A stretch of 64,000 bases of DNA, taken from IMG/VR virus record IMGVR_UViG_3300022540_000472, positions 18,978 to 82,977 of that record; one strand, given 5' to 3'. Within the stretch, counting starts at the first letter, position 1. Each line of letters begins with the position of its first letter. Shown in pieces: positions 3 to 26,133 of the stretch. A model generated the notes under the pieces. The model saw only the letters and a list, made by a program, of their open reading frames with translations, was not told the DNA's origin and searched no databases. The stretch is from a virus. Position numbers and translations under genes: made by a program.

Positions 3-144
3 AAAGTAACAGATGGAAAAATTGTTGGTTCGCTTGAATATTGCCAATTTTGGAAAGAACGAGACAGATGGACGTATAGAGAGGAAAATAACCCTAAAGA
101 AAAAGGGTAAATTCTGTTGCAAATGGTTAATAAGTATGGTATAA
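3..144 (+). CDS. 3' end of a gene entering from outside the window (hypothetical)
   Basis: Open frame from the window edge (KVTDGKIVGSLEYCQFWKER...) to TAA at 142-144; no function recognisable. Confidence 0.35.
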
Positions 145-194
145 TGTACCGATAGTAAATACCCCTATGGGTAACTAAAAAAGGAGACCTGCAA

Positions 195-800
195 ATGGCA
201 TTACTAAATAATGAACACGTAAATATTGACAACCTACCACCAATTTTGGCTCTTGACGTTGCAGGTCAACCACGCCGTTGGATTTCGTACAAAGATAGCT
301 GTTACTACTCAGCTAAAGGATTGGTCGCTTGGACTATGGGCGAACAAGACGTAACTTTGTTTGGTGGTAAATCACGAATGACTGGTGAACAGTCTACTTT
401 GACAATGAACACAATTATTGCAATTCGCGGACACATTAATGCGAAAGCGATTGCACATCATCGTGTTCCTTTGACCAACAAGGCTTTGTTCCGTCGTGAC
501 AGAAACGTTTGCGCTTACTGTGGTGATCAATCAACACACACAAGATTAACACGTGACCACATCCACCCATCATCAAAAGGTGGTAAAGATGTTTGGACAA
601 ATGTTGTAACGTCTTGTGGTTCTTGTAATAAGCGCAAAAGTGACTTAACCCTTGTACAAGCAAATATGGAATTGATGTATGTTCCATATGAACCAAATCG
701 CAGCGAATACCTTATTCTTATGAATAAGAAGATTTTAGCTGACCAGATGACGTTCTTGTTAAAGCAAGTTCCTAAGCATAGCAGATTGCACCTCGATTGA
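195..800 (+). CDS. HNH endonuclease (McrA/HNH_5-like)
   Basis: RDRNVCAYCG...LTRDHIHPSSKGG...WTNVVTSCGSCNKRK: Zn-knuckle plus HNH motif; AAGGAG RBS upstream. Confidence 0.9.
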   Translation: MALLNNEHVNIDNLPPILALDVAGQPRRWISYKDSCYYSAKGLVAWTMGEQDVTLFGGKSRMTGEQSTLTMNTIIAIRGHINAKAIAHHRVPLTNKALFRRDRNVCAYCGDQSTHTRLTRDHIHPSSKGGKDVWTNVVTSCGSCNKRKSDLTLVQANMELMYVPYEPNRSEYLILMNKKILADQMTFLLKQVPKHSRLHLD

Positions 801-840
801 GGGGTGCAACCTCTTTTCTTTTGAAAATAGGATAAAATAT

Positions 841-1374
841 ATGACAGATGAAATCATGGGAGTTACTCCAAAACTCCTACCAATACTTACGTTCCCAAAT
901 GAGAGACTTCGTATAGTTGCTGAAAAGGTAACAGAATTTGATGAAGAACTTAAACAATTAGTTCTTGATATGATTATCACAATGTCTGAAAATAACGGTA
1001 TCGGTTTAGCTGCACCACAAGTTGGTATTAATAAACGAGTTATTGTTATTGCACTTAGTGATACTCCTCTCGCTTTAATCAATCCAATCATCATAGCATC
1101 GGAAGGTGATATAACATCTGAAGAAGGATGCCTATCCGTTCCTGGATATTACGAAACAATTAAACGCCACAGTAACATTGTAGTTAGCTTTCAAACATTA
1201 GAAGGTGAAGTTAAGGAATCAACTGCAGCAGGAATGTTATCAACTGTTGTTCAGCACGAAATTGATCACCTTAATGGAAAACTATTTGTTGACTATCTTT
1301 CCCCCTTAAAACAAAATAGGGCAAGAGAAAAATCAAAAAAGAATGCGAAGAAAATGCTTAAACTCGTGAAATAG
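841..1374 (+). CDS. def: Peptide deformylase
   Basis: All three PDF motifs: GIGLAAPQVG, EGCLS, QHEIDHLNG. Confidence 0.97.
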   Translation: MTDEIMGVTPKLLPILTFPNERLRIVAEKVTEFDEELKQLVLDMIITMSENNGIGLAAPQVGINKRVIVIALSDTPLALINPIIIASEGDITSEEGCLSVPGYYETIKRHSNIVVSFQTLEGEVKESTAAGMLSTVVQHEIDHLNGKLFVDYLSPLKQNRAREKSKKNAKKMLKLVK

Positions 1375-1443
1375 TTATTGTTTCTGTTGTCTTTTGGTGA
1401 ACATACGTATATAATACAATTTCTAAAATAGAAGGAAATTCAA

Positions 1444-1659
1444 ATGAAAGAATCAATAAAAGAAATATTATCTAATGCTGTTACTCAAGGGATTGACCCT
1501 GCAGAAATTAAAAAATTAAAGGAAATGATGGCAATTGGGCAACCAAGTCCAACTAAAAAATATAGAACTCGTGCTGAACGTGTATCGCGTCGAAAGATGC
1601 AAAAAGAATCTCGTCGTCGTAATCGTGGTGTCAATCAAGGTAAACGCGCTAAACGATAA
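1444..1659 (+). CDS. Small basic hypothetical protein
   Basis: GAAGGA RBS, upstream TATAAT, Arg/Lys-rich C-terminus. Confidence 0.7.
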   Translation: MKESIKEILSNAVTQGIDPAEIKKLKEMMAIGQPSPTKKYRTRAERVSRRKMQKESRRRNRGVNQGKRAKR

Positions 1660-1665
1660 TTGTAT

Positions 1666-1741
1666 GTCCTTGTAGTGTAACTGGATGCACACAGACCTCC
1701 TAAGTCTGCTGGTGTGGGTTCGAATCCCACCGAGGACACCA
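1666..1741 (+). tRNA. tRNA-Arg, anticodon CCT
   Basis: Cloverleaf: acceptor GTCCTTG/CGAGGAC, D-stem GTGT/GCAC, anticodon stem CAGAC/GTCTG with loop CT-CCT-AA, T-arm GTGGG-TTCGAAT-CCCAC, encoded A-CCA; 76 nt. Confidence 0.96.
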
Positions 1742-1763
1742 TAATAAAAATAAAGAGAACAAT

Positions 1764-2324
1764 ATGGATTTAGAGCAATATAAGAAAGATGCAATACGCA
1801 CAGAAAGTCAAATAGATAGTATAAAAATTAATACAACCATGCTTATTAATGTGTTAGCAATGTACATTAGTGCTGGACAAATGCTTGACCAAGTTAAAAA
1901 GCACATTTTTTATGGAAAAGAATATAAGATTGATGAATTCAATCACGCATATATGACTGTAAGAGATTCACTTGAAGATGTTGCTGGTGTACCATTATCA
2001 GGAGACCTTAATGAAGAGTTAGTCGATTTCGACCCACGCGTATTCCATGCTATCGTTGGAATCGCAACTGAATCAACTGAATTATGTGAAGCGTTATATG
2101 ATACCCTTCTTGGTAAAAAGGAAATGGATATTGTAAACCTTCTTGAAGAGAATGGTGACATACATTGGTATCAAGCTATTATGATGGATGCACTTGGTGG
2201 TGATTGGGAAAAGATTTTCAATACAAACATCGAAAAGCTACGTGCTCGCTACCCAGAAAAATTTACAAGTGATAAAGCAATCAATCGTGATTTGGAGACT
2301 GAGAGAGAAATCTTAGAAAAATAA
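1764..2324 (+). CDS. mazG: MazG-like nucleotide pyrophosphohydrolase (copy 1)
   Basis: GIATESTELCEAL...LLEENGDIHWYQA...NIEKLRARYPEKF: ExxE...EExGD motifs of the all-alpha NTP-PPase fold. Confidence 0.8.
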   Translation: MDLEQYKKDAIRTESQIDSIKINTTMLINVLAMYISAGQMLDQVKKHIFYGKEYKIDEFNHAYMTVRDSLEDVAGVPLSGDLNEELVDFDPRVFHAIVGIATESTELCEALYDTLLGKKEMDIVNLLEENGDIHWYQAIMMDALGGDWEKIFNTNIEKLRARYPEKFTSDKAINRDLETEREILEK

Positions 2325-3142
2325 TGAATATATATCGTAAACTTGTTGGCTTCCGTAATCGTTATCCTTATTGGAGCAATTCTAAACTGTCGTATAAAAT
2401 TCAGCAGTGGTCTGGAATGGAAAAATCTCCTACTGCTGCTTCATCTAAGGAATGGCGAGAGCTCGGTGAACGTCAACAGAAAGTAAGCCCAATCATCTAT
2501 TGGATTACTGAAGAAGGTTTCGATATTGTTCAAGATATTTTATTTTTTCCTTATGATGTATATCGTAACGCACGTGCTAAACTTCACAACATTTTCATTT
2601 CAAAAACACAATACATTCAAACAAGACTTCCTCGTGGAGAGTGGCACGAAAGCGAAACTCGTATCCTTCACGGACTTTGTGAATTAGTTGTTGATTTTGT
2701 TGAAGGCGAAAAAGCCCATATGTATGATAATGGAGAAGTTTGGGGAGGAGATGATTTTGTTCCCATTAAAGATAGACGTGAAGCGGGATTAAAATATTTA
2801 GATTGGGAAATTGGATTAGTAGTTGATGACGATTATCCAGGTGCAACAGAAGAGGATAAAGGAAAACCAACAGCACAATCAGAAACAGCACAAGAAATTA
2901 AAGACATCTATCTTTGGTGGAAGGATGTTCGTCCTAATCGTCCTGACCCAATGGATATTTCTGGTTGGTCAGATTATTGTGATACAAAAAGAGATATGTT
3001 TGACCCAGAAGAAGATGAAGAAAAGAGAAAACAAGTTCGGGTGATGTTAAAAACTATTACTAAACTTGAAAAAACATACGATGACGAAGATACAGAAATG
3101 TTAGTCAGTATAGTAAAAGCTCGTAAAGGAATGTGGACATGA
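2324..3142 (+). CDS. Hypothetical protein, Trp/acidic-rich
   Basis: 272-aa ORF coupled to neighbours by overlapping stop/start codons. Confidence 0.75.
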   Translation: MNIYRKLVGFRNRYPYWSNSKLSYKIQQWSGMEKSPTAASSKEWRELGERQQKVSPIIYWITEEGFDIVQDILFFPYDVYRNARAKLHNIFISKTQYIQTRLPRGEWHESETRILHGLCELVVDFVEGEKAHMYDNGEVWGGDDFVPIKDRREAGLKYLDWEIGLVVDDDYPGATEEDKGKPTAQSETAQEIKDIYLWWKDVRPNRPDPMDISGWSDYCDTKRDMFDPEEDEEKRKQVRVMLKTITKLEKTYDDEDTEMLVSIVKARKGMWT

Positions 3143-3321
3143 CAATAGAAGAGTTTATCGAGTTGGCTAAAAAACATTCAGCTACACCCGAAGCAATAAA
3201 AGCTTTTGAAGAACGCTGCAAAGAACGTGAAAAACGTTTCAAAGAGGAAGCTAGGAAACGGAGACCCGATAAAGAATTTATGGATAGACAATACACATAT
3301 GATTCAGATATACATGAATAA
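3139..3321 (+). CDS. Small charged hypothetical protein
   Basis: ATGA overlap with the previous stop; start at 3139 preferred to GTG 3133. Confidence 0.65.
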   Translation: MTIEEFIELAKKHSATPEAIKAFEERCKEREKRFKEEARKRRPDKEFMDRQYTYDSDIHE

Positions 3322-3346
3322 TCTGGACTAAACCCAAAAAATGTAG

Positions 3347-3375
3347 TTGACAAGTTGGTTAATTTGTTATATTAT
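3347..3375 (+). promoter_or_regulatory. sigma70-type promoter for the prkA-yeaH-spoVR operon
   Basis: TTGACA-N17-TATTAT. Confidence 0.75.
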
Positions 3376-3413
3376 ATACCCATCAAAGCTAATTACAATT
3401 AAAGAGGAAGGTT

Positions 3414-5366
3414 ATGAGCATTTTTGACAATTACCAAAAACGTTATACCAAGAAACAAGCTGAAGAGATGTCAATACAAGAATATCTCGATTTATGCAAA
3501 AAAGACCCATCATCATATGCGACTGCTTCAGAACGCATGTTAGATGCTATCGGGGAACCTAAAATTATCGATACACGAAATGACCTTCGTTTAAGTCGCA
3601 TCTTCACGAATCGTAAAGTTCGTACATATCCAACGTTTAATGAATTCTATGGTATGGAAGATACTATTGAACAAATCGTCGCATATTTCAAATATGCCGC
3701 ACAAGGGTTAGAAGAAAAGAAACAAATTCTTTATCTTTTAGGTCCAGTTGGTGGTGGTAAGTCATCTATTGCTGAACGATTAAAAGAATTAATTGAAACC
3801 GTTCCGTTCTATACACTTAAAGCACACAACGAAGCAACAGGTGAAGATGAATTTTCACCTATATTTGAATCACCACTTGGTTTATTTAATTTAGGTGAAG
3901 ATGCTGGCATTCTTAGTGAAGAATATGGTATTGCTGAACGATATCTTGGTGTAGTTCCTTCTCCTTGGGCAATAAAACGTCTTGATGAGATGGGTGGTGA
4001 TATCACAAAATTCTCTGTTGTTAAATTGTGGCCTTCTAAATTGCAGCAAATTGGTGTTACTAAAACAGAACCTGGTGATGAAAACAATCAAGACATTTCC
4101 GCATTGGTTGGTAAAACTGAATTGCGTAAGTTAGAATATTATGCTCAAGACGACCCAGATGCGTATAGCTACAGTGGTGGTTTAAACTTAACTACTCAAG
4201 GTATGCTTGAATTCGTTGAAATGTTTAAAGCACCAATTAAAATGTTACACCCTCTTCTTACAGCAACACAAGAAGGTAACTACAATGGTACAGAACAGTT
4301 AGGTGCTATGCCTTATCAAGGTATTATTTTGGCCCACTCAAACGAATCAGAGTGGCAGAAATTCCGTAACAATTCTGATAACGAAGCATTTCTTGATCGT
4401 GTGTACATTGTAAAAGTTCCTTACTGCTTACGTGTTACTGAAGAAGTTGAAATTTATGAAAAATTGTTAAAGCATTCAGAATTGGCTAAAGCTAAATGCG
4501 CTCCTGGTACTTTGGATATGATGGCACAATTTTCAATTCTTTCACGATTGGTTGATCCTGAAAATTCAAACTTCTTTTCAAAAATGGAAATATATGATGG
4601 TAAGAATTTAAAAGATATCGATCCTAACGCTAAATCACTTCAGGAGTATCGTGACTTTGCTGGTGTAAATGAAGGTATGGATGGTTTCTCTACTCGTGCT
4701 GCATATAAGATTCTTTCAAAAGTATTTAACTTTGATTCATCAGAAGTAGCAGCTAACCCTGTTCACTTGATGCACGTATTAAGAAAGCAAATTAAGCAAG
4801 AACAATACAAGCCAGAAATTGAAGAACAGTACGAAATGTTTGTAAATGGAATCCTTGGACCAAAATATGCTGAATTCATCGGTGATGAAATTCAAAAAGC
4901 ATATCTTGAATCATATAGTGAATACGGCCAGAACTTATTCGACCGTTATATTCAGTATGCTGATTATTGGATTCAGGATTCAGACTTCCGTGATCCAGAT
5001 ACTGGCGAACAGTTTGATCGTGAATCATTAGATGCTGAATTATCGAAGATTGAAAAACCTGCTCACATTTCAAATCCAAAAGATTTCCGAAATGAAGTTG
5101 TAAATTTTGTTCTTCGTGCAAAGGCAAATAATGAAGGCAACAATCCTGACTGGACAAGTTATGAAAAACTTCGTGTTGTTATCGAAAAGAAAATGTTTGC
5201 TAACACAGAAGAATTAATGCCTATAATTTCATTCAACCAGAAAGCATCAAGGGATGAAGCTGATAAACATAATGATTTTGTAAATCGTATGGTAAGCCGT
5301 GGTTACACGAAGAAGCAAGTTCAGTTGTTAGTAGAATGGTATATGCGTTTTAAAGGTAACAACTAA
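3414..5366 (+). CDS. prkA: PrkA/YeaG family AAA+ protein (serine protein kinase family)
   Basis: KKQILYLLGPVGGGKSS Walker A; KTEPGDENNQDISALVGK; EFVEMFKAPIKMLHPLLTATQEGNY; AHSNESEW; typical 650-aa length. Confidence 0.96.
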   Translation: MSIFDNYQKRYTKKQAEEMSIQEYLDLCKKDPSSYATASERMLDAIGEPKIIDTRNDLRLSRIFTNRKVRTYPTFNEFYGMEDTIEQIVAYFKYAAQGLEEKKQILYLLGPVGGGKSSIAERLKELIETVPFYTLKAHNEATGEDEFSPIFESPLGLFNLGEDAGILSEEYGIAERYLGVVPSPWAIKRLDEMGGDITKFSVVKLWPSKLQQIGVTKTEPGDENNQDISALVGKTELRKLEYYAQDDPDAYSYSGGLNLTTQGMLEFVEMFKAPIKMLHPLLTATQEGNYNGTEQLGAMPYQGIILAHSNESEWQKFRNNSDNEAFLDRVYIVKVPYCLRVTEEVEIYEKLLKHSELAKAKCAPGTLDMMAQFSILSRLVDPENSNFFSKMEIYDGKNLKDIDPNAKSLQEYRDFAGVNEGMDGFSTRAAYKILSKVFNFDSSEVAANPVHLMHVLRKQIKQEQYKPEIEEQYEMFVNGILGPKYAEFIGDEIQKAYLESYSEYGQNLFDRYIQYADYWIQDSDFRDPDTGEQFDRESLDAELSKIEKPAHISNPKDFRNEVVNFVLRAKANNEGNNPDWTSYEKLRVVIEKKMFANTEELMPIISFNQKASRDEADKHNDFVNRMVSRGYTKKQVQLLVEWYMRFKGNN

Positions 5367-22367: not shown

Positions 22368-22565
22368 GTGACAGATATTTGTAAATCTGGAAAGATTGGC
22401 GATAGCTACTCTTTTCTCATAATTGCTAACAATGACAAAGAATTTGATATAACACTAAACACACCAACAGAACAATATACAAACAAAACAACATCATCGC
22501 AGTCAGCAGCGCTTTGGTTGGAACAAAAGATAAATATAATAAACAACGAACAACGAGAAGAATAA
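22368..22565 (+). CDS. Small hypothetical protein
   Basis: GGAG RBS, GTG start, coupled to the next gene. Confidence 0.5.
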   Translation: MTDICKSGKIGDSYSFLIIANNDKEFDITLNTPTEQYTNKTTSSQSAALWLEQKINIINNEQREE

Positions 22566-23068
22566 TGGAAGAGAATTTACCAAGTGGGACATATGCTGCT
22601 GTCCACTTTGACGAACAAACGATAAACAAAATTCAACAATTTATCACTGACAACAACATCCCAAATGGATTAGCCCCAAACAAGATGCACTGTACACTTT
22701 TGTATAGTAGAAAACATTTACCTGATTATGTTCGGCATGGAGATATCAATCCACCACTAAAAGGTACGCCTACTAAATTGGAAAAGTGGCCAAGTCAGCC
22801 TGATAGCGAAGGCAACGTGTCTATGTGTCTTGTAATGAAATTTGATTGTCCTGAATTAGTGGAACGACACAACTTTTTAATGAAAGAACATAATGCTTCA
22901 TTTGATTTTGATAAGTATACTCCTCATGTTACATTATCATATGATGTTGCAGGAATGCAAGTTAAAGACCTTTCCAACATTGAAGATACAGTTGATAGCA
23001 TGACGGTTGTATATGAATATGGAGATGACTTAAATTTAGATTGGGCGAAAACAAGCACATCTTCCTAA
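22565..23068 (+). CDS. acb1: Acb1/T4 gp57B-like 2H phosphodiesterase (anti-CBASS nuclease)
   Basis: GTYAAVHF...HCTLLYSR...FDKYTPHVTLSY...Y.D.LNLDWA matches T4 gp57B (HSTICYSR, DDYTPHITLSY, LKLDWA) as recalled. Confidence 0.88.
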   Translation: MEENLPSGTYAAVHFDEQTINKIQQFITDNNIPNGLAPNKMHCTLLYSRKHLPDYVRHGDINPPLKGTPTKLEKWPSQPDSEGNVSMCLVMKFDCPELVERHNFLMKEHNASFDFDKYTPHVTLSYDVAGMQVKDLSNIEDTVDSMTVVYEYGDDLNLDWAKTSTSS

Positions 23069-23092: not shown

Positions 23093-23530
23093 ATGTTCAA
23101 AGGATTGATATTTTTGTTGTTTTTGTTTAGTACCTCTGCAGTTGCGGTTGATTACGCAGCTATGGTTAAACAAGAAGGTAATGCTCTTGTTCTATCTGTC
23201 GGAGGAGAACGTATTGCATCTATTGATGAATATGGACTCAAGTCGAAGAAAGTACAACAACAAATACTTGATAGAGCTGTAAAGCAAGTAGATTTTTGTG
23301 CTACAAAAGGTCGGTGGGGTAGTTCTCTCGCTGATGAAGCAAAAGATAAAATCGGTAATGTAAAATTTCATATAAATCGTTTATATGAGATGACAAAAGA
23401 TATCAAGATTCCACGATATATGATCGTTGATAATGAACGAATGATACGAGAAGCATACAGACATGGTTATAAAGACCATTATCAATTTGGAGTGCAAGTT
23501 ATAAAGGATTGTCTAGTTAATGGATTTTAA
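23093..23530 (+). CDS. Secreted hypothetical protein
   Basis: Signal peptide MFKGLIFLLFLFSTSAVA; two Cys. Confidence 0.7.
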   Translation: MFKGLIFLLFLFSTSAVAVDYAAMVKQEGNALVLSVGGERIASIDEYGLKSKKVQQQILDRAVKQVDFCATKGRWGSSLADEAKDKIGNVKFHINRLYEMTKDIKIPRYMIVDNERMIREAYRHGYKDHYQFGVQVIKDCLVNGF

Positions 23531-23533
23531 TTG

Positions 23534-23571
23534 TTGACTTTTTAGTCTCTTTGTTATATAATTTATAAATA
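23534..23571 (+). promoter_or_regulatory. Tandem sigma70 and T4-type late promoters for tmRNA
   Basis: TTGACT-N17-TATAAT (23534-23562) immediately followed by TATAAATA (23564-23571). Confidence 0.85.
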
Positions 23572-23574
23572 GAT

Positions 23575-23910
23575 ATATCATTGTATGAAAGTAATGAAAT
23601 AGGAAGGTAACACGCGGGTTCGAATCCCGCCTTCTCCACCAAAAGCATTTTATGCGGCAGCAAAGTTTTAGTTTAGCGACTGAAAAATGGTTAGAATGAA
23701 AAAATTAGCCCGCCTAACCAGAATGCTTCTGATGGGGATGACTTGGAATCGACTATCGACTGAAAGATTACTGGACAGTGCGTCAAGTTGACCGACGTAA
23801 AAAGGGCAAAAAACTATAATTGCAAATGACGAAAGTTATGCATATGCAATGGCTGCCTAAACAGCAATAGCCATTACGGGGTTGATAAAACCTGGCAACA
23901 GAATTATCAT
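23575..23910 (+). ncRNA. ssrA: Circularly permuted (two-piece) tmRNA
   Basis: Acceptor piece GCGGG-TTCGAAT-CCCGC-CTTCTCC-A-CCA ends at 23641; coding piece starts GGGGATGACTTGGAATCGAC at 23734; tag frame 23822-23860 ANDESYAYAMAA*; G3.U70 and A73 alanine identity; outer ends approximate. Confidence 0.93.
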
Positions 23911-23911
23911 T

Positions 23912-23935
23912 AGGGTAGCTTCGGCTGCCCTTTTT
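23912..23935 (+). terminator. Rho-independent terminator closing the tmRNA gene
   Basis: AGGGTAGC-TTCG-GCTGCCCT followed by T-run. Confidence 0.9.
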
Positions 23936-24001
23936 ATTGCCTGTCATTTCTTCACATAAATAATATTATAACAAAAACATCAACTCATAAAAGAAGATTA
24001 T

Positions 24002-24628
24002 ATGACATATAAATTTGAAGAAGAAGCAAACGAAAATGAAATTAAAAAACCTTTCAAATATTACGAAAGTCCAACTGGGCAAAGAATTCATCATTTCTAC
24101 ATAAGTGAAAGTGTAGAAGAACCAGCTAAGTATGTTGATATGATTCATCGTATCAAAACGGCTGGACCAACTGACTTAGTTTACATCTACCTCAATACAC
24201 CTGGTGGATATATCAATACTGGTATACAAATTATAAGTGCCATAAAATCATCACAGGCTCATGTTATAACAGTACTCGAAGGAGAAGTTTGTTCTCTTGG
24301 TACTCTTATATTTCTTTCTGGTGACGAATTCATTGTTCATGACTTCTGTATGTTCATGATTCATAATTATAGTGGTGGTACATATGGTAAAGGCCACGAG
24401 CAAGTTGCTCAACTTGAAGCTATGACAAGAGAATGGGGAAAATTAGCTCATGACATTTATGTTCCTTTTATTACCGAAGAAGAACTTGAACGAATTATTA
24501 AAGGCGAAGACCTTTGGATGGGTAGTGACGAAGTTCGTACTCGATTGCAGAAGATGCTTAAAACTATGGAAAGAGAAGCTAAATCCAAATTGAAGGCTGA
24601 AAAAGCTGCTCTAAAAAAGACTAAATAA
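24002..24628 (+). CDS. clpP: ClpP-family serine protease
   Basis: IYLNTPGG; GEVCSLG (catalytic Ser); FMIHN (catalytic His); EDLWM; CATAAATA at 23955-23962. Confidence 0.85.
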   Translation: MTYKFEEEANENEIKKPFKYYESPTGQRIHHFYISESVEEPAKYVDMIHRIKTAGPTDLVYIYLNTPGGYINTGIQIISAIKSSQAHVITVLEGEVCSLGTLIFLSGDEFIVHDFCMFMIHNYSGGTYGKGHEQVAQLEAMTREWGKLAHDIYVPFITEEELERIIKGEDLWMGSDEVRTRLQKMLKTMEREAKSKLKAEKAALKKTK

Positions 24629-24701: not shown

Positions 24702-25772
24702 ATGAAAGATGTCCGCTTAGAAGATGTAATACGCAATTATGTTCCCCTACCACTTCACCCCAATGGTCGTGGTTTCTATTCTGTCCTCTGTAAAGTATGT
24801 GGAGATAGAGGCCACAAAGGAATGAGAGCTGGATTTAAGTTTGATAATGATGCAGTTGGATATAATTGTTTCAATTGTGGACACAAGGCTATATACGACC
24901 CAAATGCTGAAGTAATACCCAACCACCCAAGCATTTCAGATGCTATGACAAAAGTTCTTGATGCGTTCAATATTCCCGACGATGAATGGAAACAAGTCTT
25001 ATTAACGAATATGGCTAATGACCATCAGGGGTTCAAAAACGTTGGGAAGCAGCCAGTACATTTAGATATAGAGCCAAAAGAAATTGAGCTACCAAAACAC
25101 TTCTATCCCCTTGGTAATGAAGAAGATACTAACAAATGGACACAGATTGCACGATTCTATCTTGAAGAGAGAGGAATATCCCCCGATTCTGGTCCGTTCT
25201 ATCTGTCCACAGGACAAGGTGATAAGCAGGCTGCAAAATGGAAAGGACGAATTATAATACCGATATACAAAGATGAGAAGCTGATATTTTACCAAGGACG
25301 AGCTCTCGTTGATATGCAAAAGAAATATATGAGTCCACCAACCCCCAAAGACAAGGTGTTGTATGGATTTGACAAATTATTCAAAAATGCTGATTTACCA
25401 TTATATGTCGTTGAGGGGTGGTTTGATGCGTATGCCATTGATGGAGTTGCTGTTTTTGGTAATCAATTATCAGATGAACAGGTAAAATGGCTAAATAGAA
25501 GCAGACGTCCAAAAGTCATAATACCTGACAGGTTTGGTGATGGTCATATATTAGCGAATCAAGCGTTAAAAATGGGATGGCAAGTAAGTACACCAGATGT
25601 TGGAAATTGCAAAGACATGAACGCTGCTGTTCAAAGATATGGAAAGCTGTATGTAATGAAGTCAATAATTGAACACACGATGTCTGAATTTATGGCTGAG
25701 ACAGCGATTGGAGTATATTGCAAGGGTGGACAAAATAAAGGCAAGACGAAGAATAAAAAAACACGTTCGTGA
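24702..25772 (+). CDS. DNA primase (T4 gp61-like)
   Basis: Zn finger CKVCGD...CFNCG; RIIIP...FYQGR; TOPRIM VVEGWFDA...PD; KDMN. Confidence 0.9.
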   Translation: MKDVRLEDVIRNYVPLPLHPNGRGFYSVLCKVCGDRGHKGMRAGFKFDNDAVGYNCFNCGHKAIYDPNAEVIPNHPSISDAMTKVLDAFNIPDDEWKQVLLTNMANDHQGFKNVGKQPVHLDIEPKEIELPKHFYPLGNEEDTNKWTQIARFYLEERGISPDSGPFYLSTGQGDKQAAKWKGRIIIPIYKDEKLIFYQGRALVDMQKKYMSPPTPKDKVLYGFDKLFKNADLPLYVVEGWFDAYAIDGVAVFGNQLSDEQVKWLNRSRRPKVIIPDRFGDGHILANQALKMGWQVSTPDVGNCKDMNAAVQRYGKLYVMKSIIEHTMSEFMAETAIGVYCKGGQNKGKTKNKKTRS

Positions 25773-26133
25773 ACGTGGAGGACGTTGTGACTTTGAAGTA
25801 ACTCCACAATTCGTTTTGTTCTGGTGGCACAAATTAAACAGTGCTGTTTTTGATAATAAATTGACACCACCAAAAAAGATTGAGATTAGAAATTTTCGTG
25901 ATTGTTGGGGATGGTGCAAAACATACAAAACGAAACCTGACATTGTTCTTGGTATAACAAGTGACATGTGGGACCGCAAAACTTTCCTAACTGTTTTAGT
26001 TCATGAGATGGTTCATCAACACGAGCATCAAACATACAAAAAGATGTCCCATGGCCAAAACTTCTATTATTGGCAAGATAAAATCAAAAGAAATATTGGG
26101 TTATCGTTAAGCGAATACGTAGACGTTGATTAA
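25726..26133 (+). CDS. SprT-like zinc metalloprotease
   Basis: LNSAVFDNKL; VLVHEMVHQ (HExxH); SHGQNF..W; GTG start proposed. Confidence 0.85.
   Translation: MDKIKARRRIKKHVRERGGRCDFEVTPQFVLFWWHKLNSAVFDNKLTPPKKIEIRNFRDCWGWCKTYKTKPDIVLGITSDMWDRKTFLTVLVHEMVHQHEHQTYKKMSHGQNFYYWQDKIKRNIGLSLSEYVDVD

What the first reader, a model, noticed from the sequence alone, without database searches (positions are those of the whole stretch)
23534..23935. Phage-encoded circularly permuted two-piece tmRNA, not represented in the ORF track
Seen: the tRNA-like 3' module (T-arm plus ACCA, ends 23641) comes before the 5' module (GGGGATG..., starts 23734). Together they form an acceptor stem with G3.U70 and A73. 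The 92-nt intervening segment is closed by AAGCATTT/GAATGCTT. A resume context ATAATT-GCA opens the tag ANDESYAYAMAA*. The gene has its own sigma70 promoter, a T4-type late promoter and a terminator. Established: permuted ssrA genes are known from alphaproteobacteria, some cyanobacteria and some betaproteobacteria, and phage tmRNAs have been reported. Inference: the phage keeps its own ribosome-rescue RNA on both early and late. The tag ending (YAMAA rather than YALAA) may alter which protease or adaptor reads it. No smpB is in the window, so host SmpB is presumably used.
Basis: partly seen in the sequence, partly recalled or inferred. Interest (0 to 1): 0.8.

Follow-up and report, generated by a model that had tools for sequence, protein, structure and literature searches.

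The report
Two-piece tmRNA gene in jumbo phage
This is a genuine, apparently intact ribosome-rescue RNA (tmRNA) gene of the circularly permuted two-piece type on a fragment of a large uncultured phage; such genes are already documented in phages, so it is a well-built new example, not a new kind of thing.

Summary
ARAGORN calls a permuted tmRNA at 23548-23951 with the tag ANDESYAYAMAA. Rfam gives tmRNA_permuted 113 bits (cutoff 47) and alpha_tmRNA 95 bits (cutoff 50). Eleven phage permuted tmRNAs show compensatory changes in the acceptor stem, the closing stem, P2 and both pseudoknots. The window's copy alone has one U.U mismatch, at acceptor pair 6:67. The host record is a 92-kb, roughly 28%-complete fragment of a jumbo phage. 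Its ligase-ClpP-primase gene order matches Xanthomonas phage XacN1. No SmpB was found in this record or in 17 other tmRNA-bearing phage records, three of them complete or near-complete. The sigma70-type and TATAAATA boxes are each statistically gene-associated in this record. The adjacent ClpP-like gene is a backbone gene. It lies near the tmRNA in several related contigs, but this looks like shared gene order, not a proven module. Phage two-piece tmRNAs are already published (Buchholz 2022; tmRNA database 2025). Verdict: new member of a known kind, with modest interest.

The parts
23534..23562 (+). Sigma70-type promoter: TTGACT, 17 nt, TATAAT. The predicted start is about 23569.
   Evidence: It is one of 8 such near-consensus sites in the record, all on the + strand.
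23564..23571 (+). TATAAATA box (T4 late-promoter type or a second -10 element). It lies 7 nt before the first paired base of the acceptor piece.
   Evidence: Searches show the motif is gene-upstream enriched. A similar box sits at the same spacing in relatives L014, L025, L035 and L042.
23579..23641 (+). Acceptor piece: the 5' strands of P2 (23579-84, 23590-95, 23602-09), the T-arm (23614-30), the acceptor 3' strand (23631-37), and the discriminator A73 plus encoded CCA (23638-41).
23642..23733 (+). 92-nt intervening segment, removed during maturation. It is closed by a 9-pair stem (23643-51/23720-28) followed by the invariant 4-nt leader TGAT.
   Evidence: The closing stem forms 8-12 pairs in all 11 phage genes, with different sequences in each.
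23734..23821 (+). 5' part of the coding piece: the acceptor 5' strand GGGGATG (G3 pairs with U70), the D-loop analogue GGAATCGA, the 3' strands of P2, and pseudoknot PK1 (23781-84/23794-97 and 23788-93/23804-09).
   Evidence: (invariant columns).
23822..23860 (+). Tag reading frame: resume codon GCA, peptide ANDESYAYAMAA, stop TAA in the loop of helix 5 (23848-54/23869-75).
23877..23908 (+). Pseudoknot PK2: stem GGGTT/AACCT, with loop GATAA pairing to TTATC at 23904-08. It contains the ACCTGGCAACAGAA motif of the alpha-type consensus.
   Evidence: L009, L042 and L040 have the same layout with compensatory sequences.
23912..23936 (+). Intrinsic terminator: an 8-pair hairpin with a TTCG loop, then a T run.
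24002..24628 (+). Neighbouring ClpP-family serine protease gene (208 aa). It is context, not shown to be part of the RNA's function.
   Evidence: Pfam CLP_protease at 51 bits. Ser, His and Asp align with those of solved ClpPs. It is a backbone gene in XacN1 and RAS14.

Best explanation
Positions 23534-23936 hold a complete, self-contained ssrA gene of the circularly permuted type on a jumbo-phage genome. It is transcribed as one precursor from a strong sigma70-type promoter, and probably also from an adjacent TATAAATA box, and it ends at an intrinsic terminator. The precursor folds so that the acceptor stem is extended by a closing stem across the 92-nt intervening segment. Host tRNA-processing enzymes then cut the precursor: RNase P at G23734, and 3' trimming back to CCA at 23641. 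This leaves an acceptor piece of about 63 nt and a coding piece of about 180-200 nt, held together by the acceptor stem and helix P2. Host AlaRS charges the RNA through G3.U70 and A73. Host SmpB and EF-Tu deliver it to stalled ribosomes, where translation resumes at GCA and appends ANDESYAYAMAA, which marks the product for proteolysis. The likely benefit to the phage is to keep ribosomes free while host and phage mRNAs are being cleaved during infection. Shown here: the gene's anatomy, its family membership and its covariation. Inferred: processing, charging, use of host SmpB, promoter use and the benefit to the phage.
For: ARAGORN calls a permuted tmRNA with a tag. Rfam RF04321 scores 113 bits and RF01849 scores 95 bits, both about twice their cutoffs. 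G3.U70, A73, the encoded CCA and the T-loop are intact, and the D-loop analogue is invariant across relatives. Eleven phage permuted tmRNAs show compensatory changes in P1 and in the closing stem, and all of them form a P2 duplex. PK1 and PK2 can be drawn with compensatory equivalents in L009, L042 and L040. The stop codon lies in the loop of helix 5. The promoter and terminator motifs are present and statistically gene-associated in this record. The tmRNA sits between the ligase and ClpP genes in a second, distant jumbo-phage contig, G006. No SmpB was found in any of 18 tmRNA-bearing phage records, including the complete XacN1 genome and two records CheckV rates 99-100% complete, which fits reliance on host SmpB. 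The literature documents two-piece tmRNAs in phages and tmRNAs in huge phages (PMC9004378, PMC11915505, PMC7162821).
Against: The window's copy has a U.U mismatch at acceptor pair 6:67 that no relative has, and P2a has two internal non-canonical pairs. No expression or processing data exist. The host is unknown, so compatibility with host SmpB and AlaRS is assumed. No gp55 or gp33 homologue was found for the TATAAATA box, although the fragment is only about 28% of the genome.
Confidence: 0.88

Rival explanations
1. The tmRNA and the ClpP-like protease 66 nt downstream form a phage-run tag-and-destroy module. The phage tmRNA adds a variant tag ending in MAA, and the phage ClpP, working with a host or unseen phage unfoldase, preferentially degrades the tagged products.
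For: The two genes lie on the same strand, 66 nt apart. A ClpP-like gene lies 2.65-7.1 kb from a permuted tmRNA, on the same strand, in four other viral contigs: G006, G004, G003 and G001. The ClpP catalytic Ser, His and Asp are intact. The nearest tmRNA relative (L009/G001) also ends in MAA and its contig also has a ClpP-like gene.
Against: In XacN1 and RAS14 the order ligase-ClpP-primase is kept with no tmRNA between. XacN1's tmRNA lies 49 kb away in the terminal repeat. RAS14 and Vibrio phage D479 have the ClpP-like gene but no tmRNA above the Rfam cutoff. A terminator separates the two genes. No ClpX-type AAA_2 domain was found in the record. The contigs that show proximity are related phages, so shared gene order explains it. 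Tag ends do not track the presence of ClpP: G006, G004 and XacN1 all have LAA tags together with a ClpP-like gene.
Confidence: 0.08
2. The gene is a decaying copy or a decoy. It binds host SmpB, AlaRS or ribosomes but tags poorly, so it dampens host trans-translation instead of supplying it. The CDS-less tmRNA-like RNA of mycobacteriophage DS6A has been reported to act this way.
For: The U.U mismatch at acceptor pair 6:67 is unique to this copy. The DS6A precedent is cited in PMC11915505.
Against: All other identity and structural elements are intact. These include G3.U70, A73, CCA, the T-loop, PK1, the resume context, a 12-codon tag with a canonical xAA end, helix 5, PK2, a consensus promoter and a terminator. 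The Rfam scores are as high as or higher than those of most phage relatives scanned.
Confidence: 0.03
3. The gene is a passive host-derived passenger, either a remnant of integration or excision at a bacterial ssrA site or a bacterial contaminant in the contig.
For: tmRNA genes are common integration sites, and fragments of them occur in prophages (PMC9004378).
Against: The gene is complete. G+C is uniform at 0.34-0.38 across the window. The flanking genes are phage genes. No tyrosine integrase was found in the record. None of 401 sampled alphaproteobacterial genomes matches beyond the roughly 30-nt T-arm or a 61-nt stretch of the tag region. The nearest relatives are viral contigs.
Confidence: 0.01

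Closest known systems
Two-piece (permuted) tmRNAs of marine phages: OM43 phage Melnitz, pelagimyophages and others (Buchholz et al. 2022, PMC9004378)
   Same: They are phage-borne circularly permuted ssrA genes detected by ARAGORN, alpha-like in sequence, placed behind an early promoter, with no phage SmpB reported. The nearest relatives of the window's RNA are also marine: the L009 type occurs on a Tara Oceans contig.
   Different: The window's gene has no glutamine riboswitch. It sits on an XacN1-like jumbo-phage backbone, not a T4-like genome of about 140-150 kb. Its tag differs (ANDESYAYAMAA). blastn found no match in 50,697 isolate phage records.
Alphaproteobacterial two-piece tmRNA (Rfam RF01849; Caulobacter, Keiler et al. 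2000)
   Same: The gene order is the same: acceptor piece, intervening loop, coding piece. It shares the P2 pairing, PK1, the resume context UAUAAUUGCA and the PK2 motif ACCUGGCAACAGAA. It scores 95 bits against a cutoff of 50.
   Different: The 5' hairpin of the alpha model is absent (alignment). The T-loop is the canonical UUCGAAU, unlike the alpha consensus. None of 401 sampled alphaproteobacterial genomes matches beyond short conserved blocks. The tag starts ANDE, whereas the alphaproteobacterial tags I recall start ANDN (from memory, not tested).
Permuted tmRNA of Xanthomonas jumbo phage XacN1 (AP018399.1, 37231-37530 and the terminal-repeat copy)
   Same: It is carried by a jumbo phage that shares the NAD ligase, ClpP-like and primase genes at 38-42% identity and in the same order. 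It is also a permuted tmRNA, and that phage also has no SmpB.
   Different: XacN1's copy scores as beta-type (RF01850, 108 bits). Its tag is ANANTFDYALAA. It lies in the tRNA region of the terminal repeat, 49 kb from the ClpP-like gene, and it is not annotated in the GenBank record.

Membership tests
tmRNA, permuted two-piece form (Rfam RF04321 / RF01849) | Covariance-model score above the curated gathering score | tested here: met
   RF04321 scores 113 bits against 47. RF01849 scores 95.1 bits against 50.
tmRNA, permuted two-piece form (Rfam RF04321 / RF01849) | tRNA-Ala-like acceptor stem with G3.U70, discriminator A73 and a CCA end | tested here: met
   GGGGATG pairs with CTTCTCC, with G3.U70 present and ACCA encoded. 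Pair 6:67 is a U.U mismatch.
tmRNA, permuted two-piece form (Rfam RF04321 / RF01849) | T-arm with a T-loop, and the D-loop analogue GGNNUCGA | tested here: met
   The T-arm is a 5-bp stem with loop TTCGAAT. GGAATCGA falls in invariant columns of the alignment of 10 phage genes.
tmRNA, permuted two-piece form (Rfam RF04321 / RF01849) | Permuted gene order: the acceptor (3') module lies upstream of the coding (5') module, separated by an intervening segment | tested here: met
   CCA ends at 23641, G1 is at 23734, and the segment between is 92 nt with a covarying closing stem.
tmRNA, permuted two-piece form (Rfam RF04321 / RF01849) | Pseudoknot PK1 followed by a resume codon and a short tag frame ending in hydrophobic-Ala-Ala | tested here: met
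   PK1 has stems of 4 bp and 6 bp, the second with one mismatch. The resume codon GCA is at 23822. The tag is ANDESYAYAMAA and the stop codon lies in the helix 5 loop. PK1 was drawn by hand, not by a pseudoknot predictor.
tmRNA, permuted two-piece form (Rfam RF04321 / RF01849) | Processing of the precursor into two base-paired RNAs | not testable with these tools
   This needs Northern blots, RACE or RNA-seq.
tmRNA, permuted two-piece form (Rfam RF04321 / RF01849) | Alanylation, SmpB binding and trans-translation activity | not testable with these tools
   No SmpB gene was found in the 92-kb record, so a host SmpB would be required.
Alphaproteobacterial subtype (RF01849) | Subtype-specific elements: the 5' hairpin and the PK2 motif | tested here: inconclusive
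   The PK2 motif is present, but contig L040, which Rfam scores as beta-type, also has it. The 5' hairpin is absent. No close alphaproteobacterial homologue was found in 401 genomes.
T4-type late promoter | TATAAATA at about -10, the motif enriched upstream of genes, and a gp55-type sigma factor encoded by the phage | tested here: inconclusive
   The motif is present at 23564-71. Seven of 10 sites in the record are gene-upstream, against a 19% background (p=6e-4). No gp55 or gp33 homologue was found in the 28%-complete fragment.
ClpP (peptidase S14), for the neighbouring gene 24002-24628 | The CLP_protease domain with the Ser-His-Asp catalytic triad | tested here: met
   Pfam PF00574 scores 51.4 bits against 20.2. 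The triad residues align with those of solved ClpPs. No ClpX-type partner was found in the record.

The most novel reading that the evidence does not exclude
A lineage of marine jumbo phages keeps a permuted tmRNA and a ClpP-family protease linked within 0.07-7 kb as a phage-controlled tag-and-degrade system. Variant tag ends (MAA, IAA) would be tuned to the phage protease or to an unknown adaptor. This would let the phage clear and recycle products of cleaved mRNAs independently of host proteolysis.
Probability: 0.08. Interest if true: 0.7.

Novelty: new member of a known kind. Interest (0 to 1): 0.3.

Why it matters
The finding adds a cleanly delimited phage tmRNA with an annotated promoter, processing sites, pseudoknots and terminator, from an uncultured XacN1-like jumbo phage. 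It shows that the gene is missed by ORF-based annotation. The same kind of gene is also unannotated in the published XacN1 record. The 11-gene comparison shows three things: a covarying closing stem, an invariant TGAT leader at the processing site, and no SmpB gene in any of 18 phage records. This supports the general picture that phages supply the RNA and borrow the host protein. The recurring tmRNA-ClpP neighbourhood is a testable lead, but it is not established.

Tried and rejected
blastn of the locus against 50,697 isolate phage records found nothing. A single-sequence search of IMG/VR with the ClpP-like protein found nothing. The genome-contig scan with the resume-context pattern was not lineage-specific and returned mostly one-piece tmRNAs from many phyla, so it did not identify a donor or host. 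A BLAST of the gene against 401 alphaproteobacterial genomes matched only short conserved blocks, so the host remains unknown. T4 gp55 and a KVP40-type gp33 had no homologue in the fragment, which is uninformative at 28% completeness. The 145-aa ORF just upstream was considered as a divergent SmpB and rejected, because it has an N-terminal signal peptide and no family hits. A glutamine riboswitch like the one in Melnitz was looked for and not found. The single-strand MFE fold recovers the T-arm, acceptor stem, closing stem and terminator, but not the long-range P2 pairing. Alignment A2 had 442 columns, too wide for build_rna_model, so covariation was counted by script instead. I made one malformed pattern call (17) and one call with a wrong 'of' argument (64).

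Full report
**Observation**

The region was read directly and scanned with two independent detectors. ARAGORN reports a permuted tmRNA at 23548-23951 on the + strand with the tag ANDESYAYAMAA*. Rfam gives RF04321 tmRNA_permuted at 23579-23860 (113 bits, gathering score 47, E=3e-21). It also gives RF01849 alpha_tmRNA at 23530-23912 (95.1 bits, gathering score 50).

- The T-arm is at 23614-30 with loop TTCGAAT.
- The acceptor 3' strand is 23631-37, and ACCA ends at 23641.
- The intervening segment is 92 nt (23642-23733), closed by a 9-pair stem.
- The coding piece starts at G23734, and G3.U70 and A73 are present.
- The resume codon GCA is at 23822 and the stop codon at 23858-60.
- TTGACT-17-TATAAT lies at 23534-62 and TATAAATA at 23564-71.
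- A terminator hairpin lies at 23912-31.

**Anatomy beyond the tRNA domain**

Helix P2 forms in three segments between the 5' part of the acceptor piece and the coding piece: 23579-84/23775-80, 23590-95/23767-72 and 23602-09/23754-61. The last segment has two internal non-canonical pairs.

PK1 can be drawn as CGTC/GACG plus TTGACC/GGGCAA. The stop codon lies in the loop of a 7-bp helix 5. PK2 is GGGTT/AACCT, with its loop GATAA pairing to TTATC at 23904-08.

No riboswitch or other Rfam family lies in the gene. No + strand ORF of 50 aa or more overlaps it.

**Comparative support**

An exact-pattern scan of IMG/VR with the T-arm and acceptor end found 45 loci. At least 12 of these carry permuted tmRNAs. 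A second pattern found the closest clade.

Eleven phage permuted genes were compared:
- The acceptor stem keeps G3.U70 in all 11, and pairs 4-6 change in a compensatory way.
- The 4-nt leader before G1 is TGAT in 10 of the 11 genes (TGGT in L029).
- The closing stem of the intervening segment forms 8-12 pairs in every gene, with unrelated sequences.
- A long P2 duplex forms in all of them.

L009, L042 and L040 have PK1 and PK2 equivalents with compensatory sequences. The closest relatives are viral contigs L009 and L042. The L009 type also occurs on a Tara Oceans contig, so this clade is marine. Among 401 sampled alphaproteobacterial genomes, only the roughly 30-nt T-arm and a 61-nt stretch of the tag region match. 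The gene is therefore not a recent capture from any sampled bacterium. It scores best as alpha-type, but that label is soft.

**Genome context**

The window lies in a 92,113-bp IMG/VR record that CheckV rates 28% complete, which implies a genome of roughly 330 kb. G+C is uniform at 0.34-0.38.

The neighbouring genes are thymidylate synthase, NAD-dependent ligase, DHFR, an Acb1 homologue and a secreted 145-aa protein upstream. Downstream lie a ClpP-like protease, a primase, the topoisomerase II large subunit and MazG.

The best isolate matches are distant, at 33-46% amino-acid identity. They are jumbo phages of Xanthomonas and Stenotrophomonas (XacN1, RAS14, CM1), KVP40-like Vibrio phages, and T4-like phages of Rhizobiales. 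XacN1 and RAS14 keep the order ligase-ClpP-primase with nothing between ligase and ClpP. The 2.9-kb block that ends with the tmRNA is therefore a variable insert at that position.

A second jumbo-phage contig, G006 (171 kb, about 49% complete), has the same order: ligase, several ORFs, tmRNA, two ORFs, ClpP.

**Promoters**

The motif TTGAC[AT]-N17-19-TAnAAT occurs 8 times on the + strand of the record and never on the - strand. The sites I read sit just ahead of a ribosome-binding site and ATG or of the tmRNA. About one per strand is expected from base composition (my estimate).

TATAAATA is not over-represented in number: there are 10 sites, against about 11 expected per strand. Its placement is non-random, however. 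Seven of the 10 sites lie in gene-upstream windows in the right orientation, against 19% for the 55 composition-matched 8-mers (binomial p=6e-4).

A similar box sits 5-7 nt before the acceptor piece in several relatives. In L042 it is the -10 element of a TTGACC-17-TAAAAT promoter.

No gp55 or gp33 homologue was found in the fragment. Tandem early and late promoters are therefore plausible but not shown.

**SmpB and Clp partners**

No SmpB domain was found in this record or in 17 other tmRNA-bearing phage records. These include the complete XacN1 genome and two records CheckV rates 99-100% complete. This fits reliance on host SmpB, although Al-Shayeb et al. report SmpB in some huge phages (PMC7162821).

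The downstream gene is a ClpP-family protease whose Ser, His and Asp align with those of solved ClpPs. No ClpX-type AAA_2 domain is present in the record.

**The tmRNA-ClpP neighbourhood**

The gap between the end of the tmRNA terminator and the ClpP start codon is 66 nt in the window. The same-strand distances in other contigs are 2.9 kb (G006), 2.65 kb (G004), 3.2 kb (G003) and 7.1 kb (G001). In XacN1 the distance is 49 kb. RAS14 and D479 have the protease but no tmRNA.

These phages are related, a terminator separates the two genes, and tag ends do not track the presence of ClpP. I therefore read this as inherited gene order. I keep a low-probability functional coupling open.

**Novelty**

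Two-piece tmRNAs in phages are published. Buchholz et al. 2022 found 53 two-piece forms among isolate phage genomes, 50 of them from marine or aquatic samples, and discussed their expression from an early promoter (PMC9004378). The 2025 tmRNA database lists 79 bacteriophage sequences and built RF04321 (PMC11915505). Standard tools find this gene without any tuning. I found no paper that links phage tmRNA and ClpP genes.

**Verdict**

This is a real and probably functional gene, and a new member of a known kind. My confidence in the main reading is about 0.88, and its interest is about 0.3.

The scan's own notes had already flagged the tmRNA-ClpP pair on this same stretch (e1-5354274). I tested that idea in part and did not find it established.

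Noticed in passing
window 22514-23068 (+): A 184-aa ORF matches Pfam Acb1 (anti-CBASS 2H phosphoesterase) at 109 bits. It lies two genes upstream of the tmRNA, in the same variable block between the ligase and ClpP genes.
   Followed up: no
L050 (XacN1 AP018399.1) 1471-1891 and 2840-3253: The published XacN1 genome carries a permuted, beta-type tmRNA (tag ANANTFDYALAA) in its long terminal repeat. A GOLLD RNA (RF02032, 227 bits) lies about 1 kb downstream. Neither appears in the GenBank feature table for that stretch.
   Followed up: partly
own record G000:C1:16351-16426 (about 2.6 kb before the window start): There is a tRNA with anticodon CUA (an amber suppressor, which ARAGORN labels Pyl) among 9 tRNAs in the record. 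XacN1 has two annotated tRNA-Sup genes with the same anticodon next to its tmRNA.
   Followed up: no
window 19058, 23534, 40567, 43591, 48570 and three sites upstream of the window: Eight near-consensus sigma70 promoters (TTGAC[AT]-N17-19-TAnAAT) lie on the + strand and none on the - strand. They look like the phage's early promoter set.
   Followed up: partly
L204 (G004:C1:3000-8500) 141-4099: In this viral contig a ClpP-like gene sits inside a cluster of 11 tRNA genes that ends in a permuted tmRNA (tag ANDTQFALAA). ARAGORN's call for that tmRNA overlaps the last tRNA-Met by 26 nt.
   Followed up: no
window 25669-26133 (+): A 154-aa ORF with a SprT-like metallopeptidase domain (Pfam, 34.7 bits) overlaps the 3' end of the primase ORF by about 100 nt.
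   Followed up: no
window 23093-23530 (+): A 145-aa protein with a clear N-terminal signal peptide and no Pfam or PHROG match ends 4 nt before the tmRNA promoter's -35 box.
   Followed up: partly
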